Positions 9,799-15,203 of a stretch of 64,000 nucleotides of DNA are shown here, in pieces. Origin of the DNA: a virus; the IMG/VR virus record IMGVR_UViG_3300025121_000023, positions 1-64,000 of that record; one strand, given 5' to 3'. The notes under the pieces are model-generated. The model did no database searches, was not told the DNA's origin, and worked only from the letters and a program-made list of their open reading frames with translations. Positions within the stretch are counted from its first letter, which is position 1, and each line of letters starts with the position of its first letter. The translations under genes were made by a program, and so were the position numbers.

Positions 9799-10515
9799 TT
9801 ATGCTACTTTTATAAATTGTTTAACAACTCCTGCAAAAATATCAGTTTTAAATACTTCAAGAACTTTTATAGTTATTTTTTTTCCTTTTGTTCTTTGTGC
9901 CTTTCCATTAATAACAGGCATAATGTATGGATACAATCCACTAACTTCTTTTCCATCAATACAAACAACACTTAATTCTATATAATTAAATATCGCATCT
10001 GTACATACATCATTATCATAAGAAATAAAACCATTTCTTGTAAATTCAATTTCAACAACATCATCTACTTTTAGTAAATTCTTGCTGTTAATTTCATCCT
10101 GTTTTGCTTTTTCGATTGCTTCAAAATGAGCAATATATTTTGGGTGATTAATAATGAATTTTGAAGTTTGTCCACCATAATTATTTGCACACCATAGGCA
10201 ATATTGAAAATCAATTTCTATCACTTCGTCAATTAATTTACCTGCATATTTACCACTCCAAAAATAACCTTCTGGTAAATCAAGTTTTTCATTACGAGTA
10301 AAAGAACTTGTACCTCTTAATTCAATATCGATTTCCACACCAGGATATAATGATTTTACTTTATTAATATCAGTAGAAACATTCTTAATGTAATAATACT
10401 TATGATCAACACCTGTTTGATGATGATTACCATAACTATCAGTTCGATATTGTTTTACTGCTTCATAATCCCAAAGGGTGTAAAATTGTGTAGCGAATCC
10501 AATTATTTTTTTCAT
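9799..10515 (-). CDS. hypothetical phage protein
   Basis: 238 aa ORF; FWSGKYAGK...YCLW resembles the FGKYKG...YLxW (DUF3820-like) motif. Confidence 0.6.
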   Translation of the reverse strand: MKKIIGFATQFYTLWDYEAVKQYRTDSYGNHHQTGVDHKYYYIKNVSTDINKVKSLYPGVEIDIELRGTSSFTRNEKLDLPEGYFWSGKYAGKLIDEVIEIDFQYCLWCANNYGGQTSKFIINHPKYIAHFEAIEKAKQDEINSKNLLKVDDVVEIEFTRNGFISYDNDVCTDAIFNYIELSVVCIDGKEVSGLYPYIMPVINGKAQRTKGKKITIKVLEVFKTDIFAGVVKQFIKVA

Positions 10516-10643
10516 AATTTAGGATATTAATTATTCTGTAAAAGTAATACAAATAATTGTATTTTGCAAATATTTACTAATTCGTTTTTGGACCAATCAT
10601 AAGTTGCTAATTATTAATACATAAAATTAATAAAAAACAATAT

Positions 10644-10967
10644 TTAATCAAAGAAATCTTTTCTACGATCTATTACTTCTAATCTATCAACATACTTTTT
10701 AAGAATATCACCATGACAAAGTTCATTAGGGGTTGTATTAGTTTTACAAACACATCCAAGACGTTTATATTTTAATTCAGACAAAGAATTTAATAAATCT
10801 TCATTATTTAGCAAATATTTTTCAAATAATACTATTGCTTGTTTTCTATTATCCACTTTAAATTGTGCAAGTGTATTTTCTTTATGTGAATATGGATTAG
10901 ACCATTTTGAAGGACGGGTTATATCAATATCATATGAATCAGTATATTTATTTACAACTTCACACAT
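10644..10967 (-). CDS. DUF4326-like protein
   Basis: ITRPSKWSNPY...LGCVC...CHGDIL. Confidence 0.8.
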   Translation of the reverse strand: MCEVVNKYTDSYDIDITRPSKWSNPYSHKENTLAQFKVDNRKQAIVLFEKYLLNNEDLLNSLSELKYKRLGCVCKTNTTPNELCHGDILKKYVDRLEVIDRRKDFFD

Positions 10968-10968
10968 T

Positions 10969-11337
10969 TTATTTTGAACTACTTTGTACCGATTTTTGAA
11001 CTAAAATAATATATTCCAAGAATGTTATAGGTATTTTGGATTCTTTAAAATTATCATCATACTTTAGAAGAAATAAATTACCTTCTTCGTCAATATCAGC
11101 AATAACATCATTACCATTTATATGATTTCTAAAATTAAGATTACCTGTACCGTTACTATATGTTTTTATTTCTAAATTTTCAATCATTCGAAATTTATCT
11201 TTTAATAAATTACCAATAATTTTTTCTTTTTCATATTTATCCTTTTTTTCTTTTTCTTTTTCTTTTTCCTTACTTAAAAAAAAGTTTAGTGGTTCATAAT
11301 AACCATTATCAAATGATCCTTCCCATATTTGTGACAT
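10969..11337 (-). CDS. hypothetical protein
   Basis: 122 aa ORF. Confidence 0.55.
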   Translation of the reverse strand: MSQIWEGSFDNGYYEPLNFFLSKEKEKEKEKKDKYEKEKIIGNLLKDKFRMIENLEIKTYSNGTGNLNFRNHINGNDVIADIDEEGNLFLLKYDDNFKESKIPITFLEYIILVQKSVQSSSK

Positions 11338-11373
11338 AATTTCTATTTTATATATTTTAAATAATTTGTAGTA

Positions 11374-11751
11374 TTAATGTTTTTCAATCATAAATGTATA
11401 AGCCCAATTTTGTTTATAATCACACACCGGACAAACCCAACCATCTTTTGTTGCTATTAATGCTGTGCTATTAAAAGGTGTTTCTGGATAATTAATACCC
11501 CTTGCTATTTCTTTTTTCAAATATTCATCATAGTTTTCTCCTTTATGTTTTTTTTCAAACTCGAATTTTATATGAATATCATCACCTTGGTTTTGACAAG
11601 TAAACTCGTGAAATTTTCCACTAACTTGATAATTATTTAAATTCTTAACTTGTTCATCAGTAAATGGTGATTTAATATATTTTCCTATATTATCTTTAAC
11701 TCTCAAAATTTGATTATATTTTTCGAGAGTTGACTTTGATTTTGTATTCAT
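11374..11751 (-). CDS. hypothetical zinc-ribbon protein
   Basis: HEFTC...GWVCPVCDYKQNWA. Confidence 0.6.
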   Translation of the reverse strand: MNTKSKSTLEKYNQILRVKDNIGKYIKSPFTDEQVKNLNNYQVSGKFHEFTCQNQGDDIHIKFEFEKKHKGENYDEYLKKEIARGINYPETPFNSTALIATKDGWVCPVCDYKQNWAYTFMIEKH

Positions 11752-11831
11752 AATCAGGTATTTAATTATTTAAGTTTATATATAATAGTTATAAAACATT
11801 AAAACGATTTTATAACAAAGTATAAATTCAA

Positions 11832-12005
11832 TTAAAAATTATATTTAACTATTCTACTTTTTAAGAACTTCGTGATTTTCCTTGAACAAAATAATTGTTC
11901 AAACCAGTTTAGTTCCATTATAAACTTTTCAGCATCTATATACCTTTCCGTAAGTTGTTCCATTTTGTTCAATGAAAATTCTGCAATATTTTTTGTATTT
12001 TCCAT
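11832..12005 (-). CDS. small protein encoded inside the loop of attC-like hairpin 1
   Basis: ATG at 12005 just inside the right arm; stop lies in the left arm. Confidence 0.6.
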   Translation of the reverse strand: MENTKNIAEFSLNKMEQLTERYIDAEKFIMELNWFEQLFCSRKITKFLKSRIVKYNF

Positions 12006-12049
12006 ATTATAATTTTTAACTAAATTTATACTCAACCGTTATAGGGCAT

Positions 12050-12232
12050 TTAATCCCACGGATTCTCACCAGTAATTTCGACAAACACATCCTTTAATTG
12101 CTTTACTTTTTCGGGCAAAGCAATACTAAGTTGTTCAACGTGCATTTGTGGTGGCAACGGCATCTTTAATGAGTGTGCAAGGTTGTCAAGCGAATCAATC
12201 AACTGACCAAGTGTTTCAAATTTATCTTCCAT
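12050..12232 (-). CDS. small cassette protein (MEDKFETL...)
   Basis: ATG at 12232; lies wholly between GTTATAGGGC and GCCCTATAAC. Confidence 0.65.
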   Translation of the reverse strand: MEDKFETLGQLIDSLDNLAHSLKMPLPPQMHVEQLSIALPEKVKQLKDVFVEITGENPWD

Positions 12233-12381
12233 TGTAATTAAAATAAACGCCCTATAACAACAAGTATAGCAAAGCAGGGGCGTGTTCTGTATGCTATCTG
12301 AGTGCATCTAATTTACTTCATCACGGCTCGACAGGTTAGCACTCTAAATCCCTGCCTTGCTATACTTGCAGCCGTTAGCAA

Positions 12382-12651
12382 CTATAATTTGCTTTTAAAT
12401 TCATCTACTAATTTAGTTTTGTACTCATCAGTAAATTTCATCTCGAATTTATCGGCATACCAAGTAATAAAAGCAAATAACAGTTCACTTCGTTTGCTAA
12501 CACATTGTATATCCAAATTTTTAACAAAAGTTAGTATGTTATTTTCAATTCCTAGCGTTTCACAAACTCTGTCATAAGCATCTGCCTTTGGTCGAACTTC
12601 TGTAATTAATTTTATCAGTTCTTTCTTTTTTAATTGTTCTAATGTTTTCAT
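12382..12651 (-). CDS. cassette-junction protein (...DIQC|VSKRSELL...)
   Basis: starts in a hairpin loop and reads through arm and GTT (Val) junction. Confidence 0.7.
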   Translation of the reverse strand: MKTLEQLKKKELIKLITEVRPKADAYDRVCETLGIENNILTFVKNLDIQCVSKRSELLFAFITWYADKFEMKFTDEYKTKLVDEFKSKL

Positions 12652-12693
12652 CTCTTTTATTTTTTGTTAAAAATCAGTATATACAATCATACG

Positions 12694-12951
12694 TTAGCGG
12701 TCATTGCCGTAACACTCTTGTTTATATTGTTCCAATTTATCATACAGTACTTTAAATTGTGGTTGACCGTTATCAATTAGCCAATCAATAAAATGGTAAG
12801 TTGGGTTTATATATTTGCGAATTTTATCACCCATTGTATCAGGCAACGAACCGCTAACACCCAATAAATCCAATAAAAGCTTTCGTGCTTTATTGTCAGT
12901 TATAGTGCCTTGTTCAAGGTCTTGTGCTATTTTTGAAAGTTCTGTTTTCAT
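12694..12951 (-). CDS. cassette-junction protein (...DLLG|VSGSL...)
   Basis: starts in a hairpin loop, reads through GTT junction, stop TAA is part of the next TAAC core. Confidence 0.7.
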   Translation of the reverse strand: MKTELSKIAQDLEQGTITDNKARKLLLDLLGVSGSLPDTMGDKIRKYINPTYHFIDWLIDNGQPQFKVLYDKLEQYKQECYGNDR

Positions 12952-12992
12952 AATCTTTTACTGTGTTTATTTTTAAAGTTAGAAGTAATAAA

Positions 12993-13277
12993 TCAAACTA
13001 CCATAGTGAAACTATCAGAAATCCAATTATCACCAACATATATTTCACTATCGAGTCCGTCAAATTCAACAATATTCGTACAGGTATAAATTTTATCTTC
13101 TTCCCAAAATTTACTATCTCTCATAATTTGTGTTGGTAATTTGACTTTGAATTTCTGACTTATTTTCGTAACCTTACCGTTTAATTTACTACTTCTAATA
13201 TCAGATATACTCAAGTTTTCTTGATATTCATTGAAACTTTGTATGTATTTATTATCTTTATTCTTCAACGTATTCAT
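12993..13277 (-). CDS. cassette-junction protein with KYIQSFNE leader (...ENLSISD|IRSS...)
   Basis: junction ATTAGAAGTA pairs with TACTTCTAAC on the minus strand at 12987-12978. Confidence 0.65.
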   Translation of the reverse strand: MNTLKNKDNKYIQSFNEYQENLSISDIRSSKLNGKVTKISQKFKVKLPTQIMRDSKFWEEDKIYTCTNIVEFDGLDSEIYVGDNWISDSFTMVV

Positions 13278-13279
13278 TT

Positions 13280-13969
13280 TTATTTAAAACCAAAATAGAA
13301 TTTAGGAATAACTTCTATTTTTAATCCTTTAAAATAGTCATTTCTAAATTCTTCAATTATTTTTTCATCTTGTGTTGCAAATACATAAAAACCATTTAGA
13401 AATATTTGAATTTTATCCTGATATTTATTCTTTAACGTTTCAATTAATTTATTAAATACGTATGTTGTATCATCTAATATTTCAGTAGTTTCTTTATCAA
13501 ATTTAACTTCTGGATATATTTTTATTACATCACCTATAAAAGTAGGATTAATAATAACGCCTTTAATTGTTTCAAAATAATCGTGGAATAAAGTTAGAAA
13601 TAATATTGTATTATCATTATAAGCTCTTATATTATGTATCACAAATCCTGGTTTATATCTAGTAATTATTTGATTTCTAACATAATTTATAATTTCATCT
13701 TTATTATAAATATGTTTAACAAAAACAGATATATTTAATAATTCTTTATAATTATGTTTATTAGGAATGATATCATTTAATAATAATGATAATTTTGTTT
13801 TTTCATTATCTGTAAATTTTTTTTCTTTATCAAATTCACCTTTTTTAATAATTTTATTCATAAGAACTTCGGCATCAATATTTGTAAGTTCGGGTTTAAT
13901 TCCTAACTTAGTCTCCATCATTTTTCTTATATTTTGATTTATTTGATATTTTTTTGTTGATTCATACAT
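13280..13969 (-). CDS. hypothetical protein
   Basis: 229 aa ORF. Confidence 0.65.
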   Translation of the reverse strand: MYESTKKYQINQNIRKMMETKLGIKPELTNIDAEVLMNKIIKKGEFDKEKKFTDNEKTKLSLLLNDIIPNKHNYKELLNISVFVKHIYNKDEIINYVRNQIITRYKPGFVIHNIRAYNDNTILFLTLFHDYFETIKGVIINPTFIGDVIKIYPEVKFDKETTEILDDTTYVFNKLIETLKNKYQDKIQIFLNGFYVFATQDEKIIEEFRNDYFKGLKIEVIPKFYFGFK

Positions 13970-13981
13970 ATTATTAAAATA

Positions 13982-14347
13982 TTACTCATTATTTGAATTT
14001 TTATAATTTTTTAAAAAATCCTTTTTATCTTTTGATAATTTTTCTAAACCGACTTTATTTATTTCATTTAATATATCATCTATATTATATTTAGGTGATT
14101 TATCAATTGTAATAGGATTTCGAATTAGTCTATGTTTTTTTGTAGTACTTTTAATTGTATTATCTGAAACTTTTCTATATATCTGTCTAAGTTGATCTTC
14201 ATTTAAATGTTTACTCATTTTAGATATTATAGATGTTCTTGATTTTACAGAAATCTTTAATTTTTTAATTTCATCTCTATTTTTTAATATAAAATAGCCC
14301 ATAACAAATATTACAATTATTATTAATGTTAATAACAAATTTTCCAT
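13982..14347 (-). CDS. single-TM protein with DUF6576-like C-terminus
   Basis: N-terminal TM; IDDILNEINKVGLEKLSKDKKDFL. Confidence 0.6.
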   Translation of the reverse strand: MENLLLTLIIIVIFVMGYFILKNRDEIKKLKISVKSRTSIISKMSKHLNEDQLRQIYRKVSDNTIKSTTKKHRLIRNPITIDKSPKYNIDDILNEINKVGLEKLSKDKKDFLKNYKNSNNE

Positions 14348-14354
14348 TTTTAAA

Positions 14355-15203
14355 TTATTTATAAATTACTATTTGTTTTTCAGTTGGTTTAACCATTTCA
14401 ACAGGAATGAATACATCAAACCCATTATCATCTTCAAGATGATTAATATTTTCGGGGAATGTATATCTAAATTTATCTATCATATATACAAAGTTATTTC
14501 CATTCCATACTGCTACTTGTGCATTTCTACATTTACCATAATAATATTGTCCAGTTATTAAATCATTTTTCCTAATTATTCCTTTATTAAATAATTCTTT
14601 ATATAATTCACCAGGTATTGGTCTAGGTAATTTAATATTATGAACAGTTTCTTTATCAAATTTTTCTATATTATTATATGTAATTTCAAAATATTTTTCA
14701 TTTGTATTTGTGATATTTTCTAACTCTTCCCACATTTCACCATATTTTCCATTATAAAGTTTTTCTTTAAATAAAGGAAATTCTTTTTTATACATTTTAA
14801 ACATATTATAATTCCCATATGTTTTACTATATATCATATTAGATATTCTATCACATATTTTAACAAAGATAGCATAATCACATTCTTTTATTCCTTCGTA
14901 ATATTTATTATTGGATCTTTCTGATCTGTTTTTTCCTTTTTCATTGCTAACTCTATAAATTATATCAGCAATTTTTACTCCTAGTACCTGTTTTACACCA
15001 TTATAATTAACAGTTGGATCTTCAATTAAATCATGTCCCCAACATGCTTTAATAATAATATCGTGATATTCTTTTGGAATTAAATATAAATATTTTTTAG
15101 CAATTTTAACAACACCTTGTAAATGAACAATATAAGGCAATTCATCATATTTTTGATTAATATCAATATGCTTTTGTATAATCCATTTAATTTTATCATC
15201 CAT
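14355..15203 (-). CDS. HD-domain hydrolase (RelA/SpoT HD, Mesh1-like) fused to a phage domain
   Basis: PYIVHL, GHDLIED, VKICDRISN; separate C-terminal GKCRNA...HLEDDNGFDVF domain. Confidence 0.8.
   Translation of the reverse strand: MDDKIKWIIQKHIDINQKYDELPYIVHLQGVVKIAKKYLYLIPKEYHDIIIKACWGHDLIEDPTVNYNGVKQVLGVKIADIIYRVSNEKGKNRSERSNNKYYEGIKECDYAIFVKICDRISNMIYSKTYGNYNMFKMYKKEFPLFKEKLYNGKYGEMWEELENITNTNEKYFEITYNNIEKFDKETVHNIKLPRPIPGELYKELFNKGIIRKNDLITGQYYYGKCRNAQVAVWNGNNFVYMIDKFRYTFPENINHLEDDNGFDVFIPVEMVKPTEKQIVIYK

What the first reader, a model, noticed from the sequence alone, without database searches (positions are those of the whole stretch)
11788..13199. Integron-like cassette array in a jumbo phage: attC-like hairpins with self-complementary segment ends
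Seen in sequence: four inverted repeats lie in tandem, with arms matching 22/24, 18/19, 23/26 and 14/17. The first three share the exact layout TAAC-N2-arm...arm-CANNC-GTTA. The arms differ from one another, so structure rather than sequence is conserved. Each segment between hairpins begins with a GTT sequence that is the reverse complement of the AAC sequence ending the same segment: GTTATAAAA(11788)/TTTTATAAC(11808), GTTATAGGGC(12038)/GCCCTATAAC(12249), GTTAGCAA(12374)/TTGCTAAC(12494), GTTAGCGGT(12693)/ACCGCTAAC(12850), GTTAGAAGTA(12978)/TACTTCTAAT(13190, one mismatch). Established: this pairing offset by one unit is the footprint of integron cassettes, whose R'/R'' boxes pair in the excised circle and split on G|TT integration. 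Part of the block (about 12040-12400) also looks GC-richer than its flanks. Inference: a phage gene-capture array served in trans by a host or phage tyrosine recombinase, since none is in this window.
Basis: partly seen in the sequence, partly recalled or inferred. Interest (0 to 1): 0.93.

Follow-up and report, generated by a model that had tools for sequence, protein, structure and literature searches.

The report
Integron-like gene cassettes in a phage
This 1.4-kb stretch of a large uncultured phage is a row of small swappable genes joined by folded-DNA sites like those bacterial integrons use to trade genes. The same site family fills Bacteroidota chromosomes next to an unusual recombinase, but here the genes face the opposite way and the phage fragment has no recombinase of its own.

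Summary
Nine abutting inverted-repeat domains run from 11788 to 13199. Long hairpins (TAAC-N2-arm...arm-CANNC-GTTA) alternate with segments closed by their own GTTA.../...TAAC repeat. The three best hairpins are the three top-scoring TAAC..GTTA pairs in the 112-kb record, and random genomes do not reproduce them.

Each hairpin plus segment holds one small minus-strand gene. Hairpins D and H belong to a ~120-145-nt site family that I modelled from other phages. That model hits 79 of 151 sampled Bacteroidota genomes, in co-oriented arrays. In two arrays I inspected, a Xer/IntI-like tyrosine recombinase lacking the integron-integrase insertion lies next to the array.

The window's g2 cassette recurs in other contigs with unrelated flanks, and identity starts and stops exactly at the AAC core. 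This is the footprint of integron-type crossover. The folding strand is the minus strand. In bacteria that strand is antisense to the cassette genes, which argues for a DNA-level function.

No recombinase is in this 112-kb fragment, and recombination itself is not shown. Published work (Qi 2023) reports attC clusters in phages, including a Polaribacter phage site with this layout. This scan has noted the same architecture on many other genomes. Verdict: a new variant of a known kind.

The parts
11788..11816 (-). A: short closed segment (9-bp arms, 11-nt loop) with no ORF. It is either the empty end of cassette 1 or a separate regulatory palindrome.
   Evidence: 43 nt (11775-11817) are 90.7% identical to a palindrome that occurs twice upstream of terS in Cellulophaga phage phi39:1.
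11813..12041 (-). B: long hairpin site (arms 11819-11843 / 12008-12032, 23/25, both mismatches G.T on the minus strand). A nested 18-nt repeat lies at 11875-11892 / 11962-11979. The whole g1 ORF sits in the loop.
   Evidence: Top-scoring TAAC..GTTA pair of the genome. Model R1 does not detect it, because of the long loop.
11832..12005 (-). g1: small ORF (57 aa from the ATG; 67 aa from an upstream TTG at 12035).
   Evidence: No Pfam or PHROG family.
12038..12258 (-). C: cassette body closed by a 15-bp helix (12038-12052 / 12244-12258, 14/15, the mismatch is G.T on the minus strand). The helix includes the stop codon of g2 and ends 11 nt upstream of its ATG.
   Evidence: The helix covaries among g2 homologues in other contigs.
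12050..12232 (-). g2: 60-aa protein of a conserved family (49 homologues at 55-95% identity, nearly all 60 aa).
12255..12377 (-). D: 123-nt attC-like hairpin site, G+C-rich, no ORF. Arms 12261-12279 / 12350-12368, 70-nt loop.
   Evidence: 122 bits on the minus strand against 17.8 bits on the plus strand. 94% identical over 12240-12376 to viral contig L010, next to a different ORF.
12374..12501 (-). E: cassette body closed by GTTAGCAA/TTGCTAAC plus an 18-nt inner arm. It encodes the C-terminal half of g3.
   Evidence: 12478-12525 is 91.7% identical to phi13:2 gp029.
12498..12696 (-). F: long hairpin site (arms 12504-12529 / 12662-12687, 23/26). Its loop holds the start codon and the first ~40 codons of g3.
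12382..12651 (-). g3: 89-aa mosaic ORF. The N-half resembles an ORF in viral contig L003 and the C-half resembles phi13:2 gp029. The junction lies at the 3' arm and GTTA core of F.
12693..12858 (-). G: cassette body closed by a 9-bp helix. Its left GTTA contains the TAA stop of g4.
12855..12981 (-). H: 127-nt attC-like hairpin site. Its loop and 3' arm encode the first ~33 residues of g4.
   Evidence: R1 hit 12845-12991(-), 41.5 bits, E 7.7e-8; H was not in the training set. 12981-12853 is 88% identical to viral contig L076, from TAAC exactly to GTTAGC, with unrelated flanks.
12694..12951 (-). g4: 85-aa mosaic ORF. Many unrelated small proteins share residues 1-33 at 83-96% identity. A different set of proteins shares the body, from the V-S codons that are the GTTA core.
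12978..13199 (-). I: decayed closed segment (arms 12979-12998 / 13179-13198, 18/20; the far core is TAAT, not TAAC). It lies inside g5. No hairpin site follows it, so this is the end of the array.
12993..13277 (-). g5: 94-aa ORF that starts outside segment I and abuts the next gene (13280-13969).

Best explanation
The stretch is an array of four to five single-gene cassettes of an integron-like gene-capture system typical of Bacteroidota and their phages.

Layout. Read on the window's + strand, each cassette is G|TTA-x ... x'-TAAC-N2-arm ... arm-CANNC-G|TTA. The hairpin with its AAC/GTT cores is the attC-like recombination site. The private x/x' repeat is the two halves of the outer (R-box-like) helix. 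These halves sit side by side only in the excised circle, so in the array they bracket the cassette.

Inferred mechanism. The minus strand folds as single-stranded DNA. A Xer/IntI-like tyrosine recombinase, supplied by the host or by the unsequenced part of the phage, exchanges strands within the AAC core. This excises, inserts and reorders cassettes.

Shown here:
- the architecture;
- membership of D and H in the site family;
- covariation in the family;
- strand specificity;
- cassette-exact mosaic breakpoints;
- the association of the family with such a recombinase in bacteria and in one cultured phage.

Inferred, not shown: single-strand recombination, the enzyme that would act on this phage, and any current activity.

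Differences from bacterial cassettes. The genes lie on the folding strand, so the site precedes each gene. In B, F and H the site carries the start codon and the first codons.
For: 1. Non-random chain. B, D and F are the top three of 1184 TAAC..GTTA pairs, and random genomes do not reach them. The minimum-energy fold of the 1431-nt minus strand gives the same row of closed domains.

2. One complete ORF per cassette on the + reading. The opposite reading would split g3 and g4.

3. Site family. Eleven elements from six phages share invariant AACG and TGTTA. 15 of 25 pairs have compensatory changes, and two G.U pairs are conserved. Model R1 finds H at E 7.7e-8.

4. R1 hits 79 of 151 sampled Bacteroidota genomes in co-oriented clusters about 1 kb apart.
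- In G017 and G128 a 346-355-aa tyrosine recombinase lies about 0.7 kb from the last cassette ORF of the array.
- It scores 216-225 bits on NF040815.
- It scores 203-211 bits on the integron-integrase model, in two stretches that skip profile positions ~180-254.
- The recombinase of Polaribacter phage Freya_1, beside a module shared with phi13:2, is 33% identical to it (E 2e-43).

5. Cassette-exact breakpoints.
- In three groups of contigs, g2 cassettes keep identity from |AAC to TAAC| with unrelated flanks.
- phi13:2 and phi19:3 share a 371-nt gene-plus-site unit at 99.2%, bounded by the GTT cores.
- D and H recur in L010 and L076, delimited by the cores.

6. The folding strand is the minus strand.
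- Nine arm mismatches are G.T on the minus strand against one on the plus strand.
- D scores 122 bits on the minus strand against 17.8 bits on the plus strand.
- In the bacterial arrays that strand is antisense to the cassette ORFs. The selected structure there cannot be the mRNA.

7. Published precedent. attC clusters without an integrase occur in phages. P12002L_attC1 has the same TAAC-5 nt-stem...stem-2-3 nt-GTTA layout (PMC9892861).
Against: - No tyrosine or serine recombinase is in the 112 kb, nor in three near-complete small phages that carry the architecture.
- No excision product or cassette-level polymorphism appeared in four metagenome runs. These held only low-depth contigs of identical sequence.
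- B and F are 229 and 199 nt with coding loops. That is outside attC sizes, and R1 does not detect them.
- Extrahelical bases, a hallmark of attC, are not evident. The asymmetry is a 5-nt versus 1-2-nt internal loop plus conserved G.T pairs.
- The x/x' helix reaches 15 bp and includes the stop codon, more than a recombinase box needs. That would also suit an RNA role in phages.
- The one published test of a site with this layout (P12002L_attC1 with IntI1) gave no recombinants.
- Homology limits also fall at the other core (H versus L076, g4 versus its relatives, phi13:2 versus Freya). This fits conserved sites on varied bodies, but exchange at that core cannot be excluded.
- In two MAGs and in one of five genomes checked, no recombinase lay near the sites.
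Confidence: 0.66

Rival explanations
1. Relic array. The cassettes were made and moved by the bacterial system. The phage picked them up (or recombined with other phages) by illegitimate or microhomology recombination at the conserved cores. In this phage the sites are now passive passengers with no recombinase acting on them.
For: - No recombinase is in 112 kb or in three near-complete small phages with the sites.
- Segment I has a decayed core, and B and F have swollen loops.
- L013, L026, L060 and L065 show partly eroded versions.
- There is no population variation in four runs.
Against: - D, C, G and E keep perfect or near-perfect helices. x/x' covaries among phage homologues at 65-83% protein identity, which implies continued selection on pairing.
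- Phage cassettes are systematically inverted relative to bacterial ones, so they are not simple copies of host arrays.
- Identical cassettes sit in several phage contexts with exact core junctions.
Confidence: 0.2
2. RNA-level elements. The hairpins and the cistron-closing helices act in the polycistronic early mRNA, for example in stability, processing or translational control. Shuffling is a by-product of homologous exchange between repeated regulatory stem-loops, as proposed for PeSLs of T4-type phages.
For: - In the phage the folding strand is the mRNA-sense strand, and mismatches are G.U-compatible.
- The helix pairs the stop-codon region with a point 11 nt upstream of the ATG in g2-type units.
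- Start codons lie inside the loops of B, F and H.
- There is a PeSL precedent (PMC2839356, PMC4122927).
Against: - In Bacteroidota chromosomes the same strand-specific structure is antisense to the cassette genes, so the family-wide constraint is not on mRNA.
- The invariant AAC/GTT cores and single-nucleotide-exact junctions with only 3-5 shared bases are unlike homologous exchange.
- Arms differ between neighbouring sites, so they offer no homology.
- g2 homologues work without the architecture in many contigs.
Confidence: 0.1
3. Chance palindromes in AT-rich DNA, or MITE-like insertions.
For: The genome is 23% G+C, and GTTA/TAAC occur about once per 200 nt. Short 9-nt end repeats occur by chance.
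Against: - Random-genome controls fail to reproduce the pattern.
- Covariation is seen in homologous sites.
- A model trained elsewhere finds H.
- There are no repeated identical copies or target duplications in the record.
Confidence: 0.01

Closest known systems
Integron gene cassettes and attC sites, especially sedentary chromosomal arrays with ~120-nt sites (Vibrio-type repeats) and the 'inverted integrase' integrons
   Same: - Imperfect hairpin sites with conserved AAC...GTT triplets at the base.
- An unpaired spacer, a variable stem and a variable loop; structure rather than sequence is conserved.
- One gene per unit.
- Cassette ends that pair with each other, offset by one unit.
- Breakpoints at the G|TT core.
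- One strand folds better than the other.
- In the bacterial relatives, arrays lie next to a tyrosine recombinase.
   Different: - The associated recombinase matches the integron-integrase profile only in two pieces and misses the region that holds the IntI-specific insertion.
- Phage genes lie on the folding strand, antisense to the canonical orientation.
- The outer helix reaches 15 bp.
- There are no clear extrahelical bases.
- Some sites carry coding sequence and start codons.
- No attI, Pc or integrase is in this record.
CALINs (attC clusters lacking an integrase) in phage genomes, Qi et al. 2023, PMC9892861. Example: Polaribacter phage P12002L_attC1.
   Same: - A phage-borne cluster of attC-like sites without an integrase.
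- P12002L_attC1 has the same TAAC-5 nt-stem...stem-2-3 nt-GTTA layout.
- It also comes from a Bacteroidota phage.
   Different: - That study found 17 such phages among 10,705, using the standard attC model. It did not describe the family, its spread in Bacteroidota, the inverted genes or the recombinase.
- Its P12002L_attC1 was not recombined by IntI1.
- I could not run IntegronFinder, so formal CALIN status here is untested.
PeSL (promoter-early stem-loop) mobile regulatory cassettes of T4-type phages (PMC2839356, PMC4122927)
   Same: Small accessory phage genes are flanked by stem-loop elements that mark mosaic breakpoints and may give mini-circles.
   Different: - PeSLs are near-identical promoter-terminator repeats that recombine by homology.
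- Here neighbouring sites share only the cores, junctions are exact to the base, and the family also lives in bacterial chromosomes beside a recombinase.

Membership tests
Classical integron | IntI integrase with the IntI-specific extra domain, encoded beside the array | tested here: not met
   No PF00589 or PF00239 match in the 112,560-nt record at E <= 1. The record is only ~23% complete, so absence from the whole phage is not shown. Array-adjacent recombinases in bacterial relatives fall below the TIGR02249 cut-off and skip profile positions ~180-254.
Classical integron | attC: conserved AAC/GTT triplets closing an imperfect hairpin with an unpaired central spacer | tested here: met
   B, D, F and H have this. 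AACG and TGTTA are invariant in 11 family members, with a 5-nt versus 1-2-nt spacer.
Classical integron | attC length about 57-141 nt, with no gene inside | tested here: inconclusive
   D is 123 nt and fits. H is 127 nt but carries the first codons of g4. B (229 nt) and F (199 nt) exceed the range and hold coding sequence.
Classical integron | Extrahelical bases on the folded bottom strand | tested here: inconclusive
   No conserved bulges in the stems. Instead there are conserved G.U/G.T pairs at alignment columns 15/133 and 33/119, and an asymmetric internal loop.
Classical integron | Cassette = ORF followed by its attC on the same strand | tested here: not met
   Window ORFs lie on the strand that the model matches, so the site precedes the gene. 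Bacterial arrays of the same family do have the canonical order.
Classical integron | Crossover at G|TT, so that cassettes move as units bounded by the cores | tested here: met
   This is comparative evidence only. g2 cassette groups, and the phi13:2/phi19:3 unit, keep identity exactly between cores with unrelated flanks.
Classical integron | Sites recombined by an integron integrase | not testable with these tools
   Published assay: the P12002L_attC1 site with the same layout gave no IntI1 recombinants (PMC9892861).
CALIN (IntegronFinder definition) | Two or more sites passing the attC covariance model within 4 kb, with no integrase | not testable with these tools
   The IntegronFinder/HattCI models are not available here, and Rfam holds no attC family. 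No Rfam match at E <= 1 in 10000-15000 apart from a weak S15 leader hit.
   D matches by construction (122 bits). H matches independently: 41.5 bits, E 7.7e-8 for the genome and 1.4e-9 for the region. B and F are not matched. They share the layout and the conserved stem motif only.
PeSL regulatory cassettes | Near-identical repeated promoter plus terminator stem-loops | tested here: not met
   No repeated copies in the region or the record. Arms differ between sites. Promoter content was not tested, because Bacteroidota promoters are outside the scan tool.

The most novel reading that the evidence does not exclude
In phages the system has been turned round, so that the recombination site doubles as the gene's 5' end. 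The hairpin supplies the start codon and a constant leader peptide (residues 1-33 of g4, shared by many unrelated small proteins). This leader is fused in frame, through the V-S codons of the GTTA core, to interchangeable bodies. Recombination at the cores would then shuffle protein halves and expression signals, not just whole genes. The folded site in the mRNA may also gate translation.
Probability: 0.25. Interest if true: 0.85.

Novelty: new variant of a known kind. Interest (0 to 1): 0.7.

Why it matters
Integron surveys report almost no integrons in Bacteroidota (PMC9024848), and only rare attC clusters in phages (PMC9892861).

The site family modelled here from phages is in about half of a phylum-wide sample of Bacteroidota genomes. 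In two arrays I inspected it sits beside a recombinase that lacks the domain used to define integron integrases.

If these sites are active, then:
- a major bacterial phylum and its viruses share a gene-capture system that standard tools miss;
- phages use it to swap small early or accessory genes, which are likely host-takeover or anti-defence functions;
- cultured phage-host pairs (Cellulophaga phi13:2 and phi19:3, Polaribacter Freya) offer a direct experimental handle.

Tried and rejected
- tRNA scan of the window: none found. D is not a tRNA.
- Rfam at E <= 1 on 10000-15000, and on four related loci: no family for the sites.
- blastn of 10500-14500 against cultured phages: only two short matches, of 48 and 43 nt.
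- tblastn of g2, g3 and g4 against cultured phages: no match.
- Relatives of the flanking 229-aa gene in IMG/VR: none.
- The E/F junction sequence in IMG/VR: only phi13:2 itself.
- The D-arm pattern also hit an unrelated G+C-rich contig, L009. I discarded it.
I reached the contexts of homologues through the search for related loci instead.
- Public runs and read laying on four groundwater runs:
  - They held only low-depth contigs identical to the window.
  - The listed joints have 20-25-nt sides and are not credible.
  - No cassette-level variant or circle junction was seen.
  - These are assembled contigs and cannot show rare forms.
- Paralogy of g3 and g4 as an explanation of shared motifs: rejected (BLASTP E 4.7).
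- Adjacency of sites and recombinases in the two MAGs G005 and G006: not seen, as the contigs are fragmented.
- The Baltivirus 428-aa recombinase next to the phi13:2 and phi19:3 arrays is only a weak XerD match. I did not count it as the family's enzyme.
- Bacteroidota-type promoter motifs in the 3' arm and x region: I looked by eye and found no convincing match, so I make no claim.
Full report
**What is in the sequence.** The region 11788-13199 is a continuous chain of nine inverted-repeat domains that share their boundary tetramers.

There are two kinds of domain, and they alternate.
- Hairpin sites. B is 11813-12041, D is 12255-12377, F is 12498-12696 and H is 12855-12981. On the + strand they read TAAC, 2-4 nt, a 17-26-nt arm, a loop of 70-164 nt, the complementary arm, 5-6 nt, GTTA.
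- Closed segments. A is 11788-11816, C is 12038-12258, E is 12374-12501, G is 12693-12858 and I is 12978-13199. They begin GTTA-x and end x'-TAAC.

Arm matches are 23/25, 18/19, 23/26 and 14/17 for the sites, and 9/9, 14/15, 8/8, 9/9 and 18/20 for the segments. B and E also contain nested inner repeats.

With the layout fixed, B, D and F score 19, 16 and 9. They are the three best of all TAAC..GTTA pairs in the 112,560-nt record. Sixty Markov-1 random genomes gave a mean maximum of 7.2 and 0.2 pairs per genome at 9 or more.

The minimum-energy fold of the whole 1431-nt minus strand reproduces the row of closed domains. G+C rises to 37-42% over C and D, against 18-30% around them.

**The record.** It is an IMG/VR virus contig, linear, 23% G+C, and rated 23% complete. 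It is therefore a fragment of a large phage, but 'jumbo' is not established. The same sequence is held by groundwater and soil metagenome runs.

**Genes.** Five tightly packed minus-strand ORFs fill the chain:
- g1: 11832-12005
- g2: 12050-12232
- g3: 12382-12651
- g4: 12694-12951
- g5: 12993-13277

None has a Pfam or PHROG family.

Read in the + orientation, each closed segment plus the site to its right holds exactly one ORF. The opposite pairing would cut g3 and g4 in two.

g2 is a well-conserved 60-aa protein with 49 homologues at 55-95% identity.

g3 and g4 are mosaics.
- The N-half of g3 resembles an ORF in contig L003. Its C-half resembles gp029 of Cellulophaga phage phi13:2.
- Residues 1-33 of g4 are shared at 83-96% identity by many otherwise unrelated small proteins.
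- The body of g4 is shared by another set of proteins.
- The switch falls at the V-S codons that are the GTTA core.

**The hairpins are members of a site family.** Around g2 homologues in other viral contigs (L011, L016, L017), in L010 and in phi13:2, I found elements of the same layout.

An alignment of 11 of them has invariant AACG and TGTTA. It gives 25 predicted pairs, 15 of which have compensatory double changes, and two conserved G.U pairs.

I built a covariance model from them (R1). In the whole record it finds D (in the training set) and H (not in it), at 41.5 bits and E 7.7e-8.

B and F are not found. Their loops are too long. They do share the layout and a conserved stem motif.

The x/x' helix also covaries among g2 homologues, with three different cores that each match their partner. 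It runs from the stop codon to 11 nt before the ATG.

**Cassettes move as units bounded by the cores.**
- phi13:2 and phi19:3 share one gene plus its site (371 nt) at 99.2%. Both flanks are unrelated. The block starts two bases before GTTA and ends at ...GTT.
- The window's g2 cassette, and two other g2 cassette types, occur in several contigs each.
  - The groups are WIN/L011/L046, L056/L051, and L053/54/57/58.
  - In every group identity begins exactly at AAC and ends exactly at TAAC.
  - The sequences outside are different.
- A Mangrovibacterium MAG contig has g2 at 91% nucleotide identity, ending at TAAC.
- D recurs at 94% in L010 next to a different ORF. H recurs at 88% in L076. Each is delimited by the cores.
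  - This is what conserved sites on varied cassettes should look like.
- phi13:2 and Polaribacter phage Freya share a 188-nt site-type module that starts at AAC.

R1 hits 79 of 151 genomes sampled evenly across the phylum at E <= 0.001. The hits come in co-oriented clusters about 1 kb apart, for example at least 15 in G017:C12.

In the five arrays checked, a tyrosine recombinase lies at one end in G017 and G128. It is about 0.7 kb from the last cassette ORF there. In G049 and G015 a recombinase lies within 2.4-8 kb. In G022 none is near.

The G017 and G128 proteins score:
- 216-225 bits on NF040815;
- 203-211 bits on the integron-integrase model, below its cut-off of 265;
- that second match comes in two stretches that skip profile positions ~180-254.

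In these arrays the ORFs lie on the strand opposite to the model strand. That is the canonical order of gene followed by site. The phage genes are inverted relative to this.

The 271-aa recombinase of Freya_1 lies next to its module and is 33% identical to the G017 enzyme (E 2e-43). The Baltivirus recombinase beside the phi13:2 and phi19:3 arrays is only a weak XerD match.

**DNA or RNA?** The minus strand is the one that folds.
- Nine arm mismatches are G.T on the minus strand against one on the plus strand.
- D folds better on the minus strand.
- D scores 122 bits on the minus strand against 17.8 bits on the plus strand.

In the phage this is the mRNA-sense strand, so an RNA role is possible. 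In the bacterial arrays the same strand is antisense to the genes. The family-wide constraint is therefore best read as acting on single-stranded DNA, as for the attC bottom strand.

**What is missing.**
- No tyrosine or serine recombinase is in the 112 kb, nor in three near-complete small phages with the sites.
- No excision or cassette polymorphism could be seen.
- Segment A is also a conserved palindrome present twice upstream of terS in phage phi39:1, so it may not be part of the system.
- Segment I has a decayed core and no site beyond it, so the array ends there.

**Literature.**
- Qi et al. 2023 (PMC9892861) found attC clusters without an integrase in 17 phages.
  - They showed IntI1 recombination for five of six tested sites.
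  - The failure was P12002L_attC1, whose sequence has the layout seen here.
- IntegronFinder 2 reports almost no integrons in Bacteroidetes (PMC9024848).
- I found no paper describing this family.
- PeSLs of T4-type phages are the nearest phage concept.
- This scan has noted the same architecture on many other genomes. Those notes are unchecked. I list below the claims of theirs that I reused and tested here.

**Verdict.** This is a real, integron-like cassette array of the Bacteroidota/phage type, with inverted genes and no recombinase in view. The mechanism is inferred from architecture, covariation, strand bias and cassette-exact mosaicism. It is not demonstrated.

Noticed in passing
window 12855-12951 (g4 residues 1-33); proteins P0057-P0150: The loop and 3' arm of site H encode an N-terminal peptide that more than 100 small metagenomic proteins with unrelated C-termini share at 83-96% identity. 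I cannot tell whether it is translated or merely conserved as DNA.
   Followed up: partly
window 12050-12232; alignment A1: g2 belongs to a highly conserved 60-aa family with an invariant C-terminal motif. It is found with and without the cassette architecture, in phage contigs and in Bacteroidales MAG contigs. Its function is unknown.
   Followed up: partly
window 11775-11817; L002 2480-2545: A 29-nt palindrome (segment A) is 90.7% identical to a motif present twice in tandem upstream of the small terminase gene of Cellulophaga phage phi39:1. It may be an operator or promoter element.
   Followed up: no
L060 and L065 (upstream of the g2 homologues): These are minimal sites in which the two cores are separated by only 4 nt, with no hairpin. 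It looks as if the stem-loop had been deleted between the cores.
   Followed up: no
L011/L012 (IMGVR_UViG_3300020047_007923, both ends): An 18.5-kb viral contig carries the g2 cassette and three further sites inside inverted terminal repeats.
   Followed up: no
window 13358-13412 (+): Weak match to the S15-Flavobacteria ribosomal leader (34.3 bits, gathering score 46.5, E 0.076), inside a minus-strand ORF. Probably chance.
   Followed up: no
window 10644-10967 (-): A DUF4326 protein (PF14216, E 5.5e-16; phrog_464) lies just downstream of the array.
   Followed up: no
window ~12842 (run X3): One metagenome contig matches the window from 12842 rightwards and is unrelated before that point. This is 13 nt from the TAAC core at 12855. 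It may be a relative with a different cassette body, but I could not resolve it.
   Followed up: no
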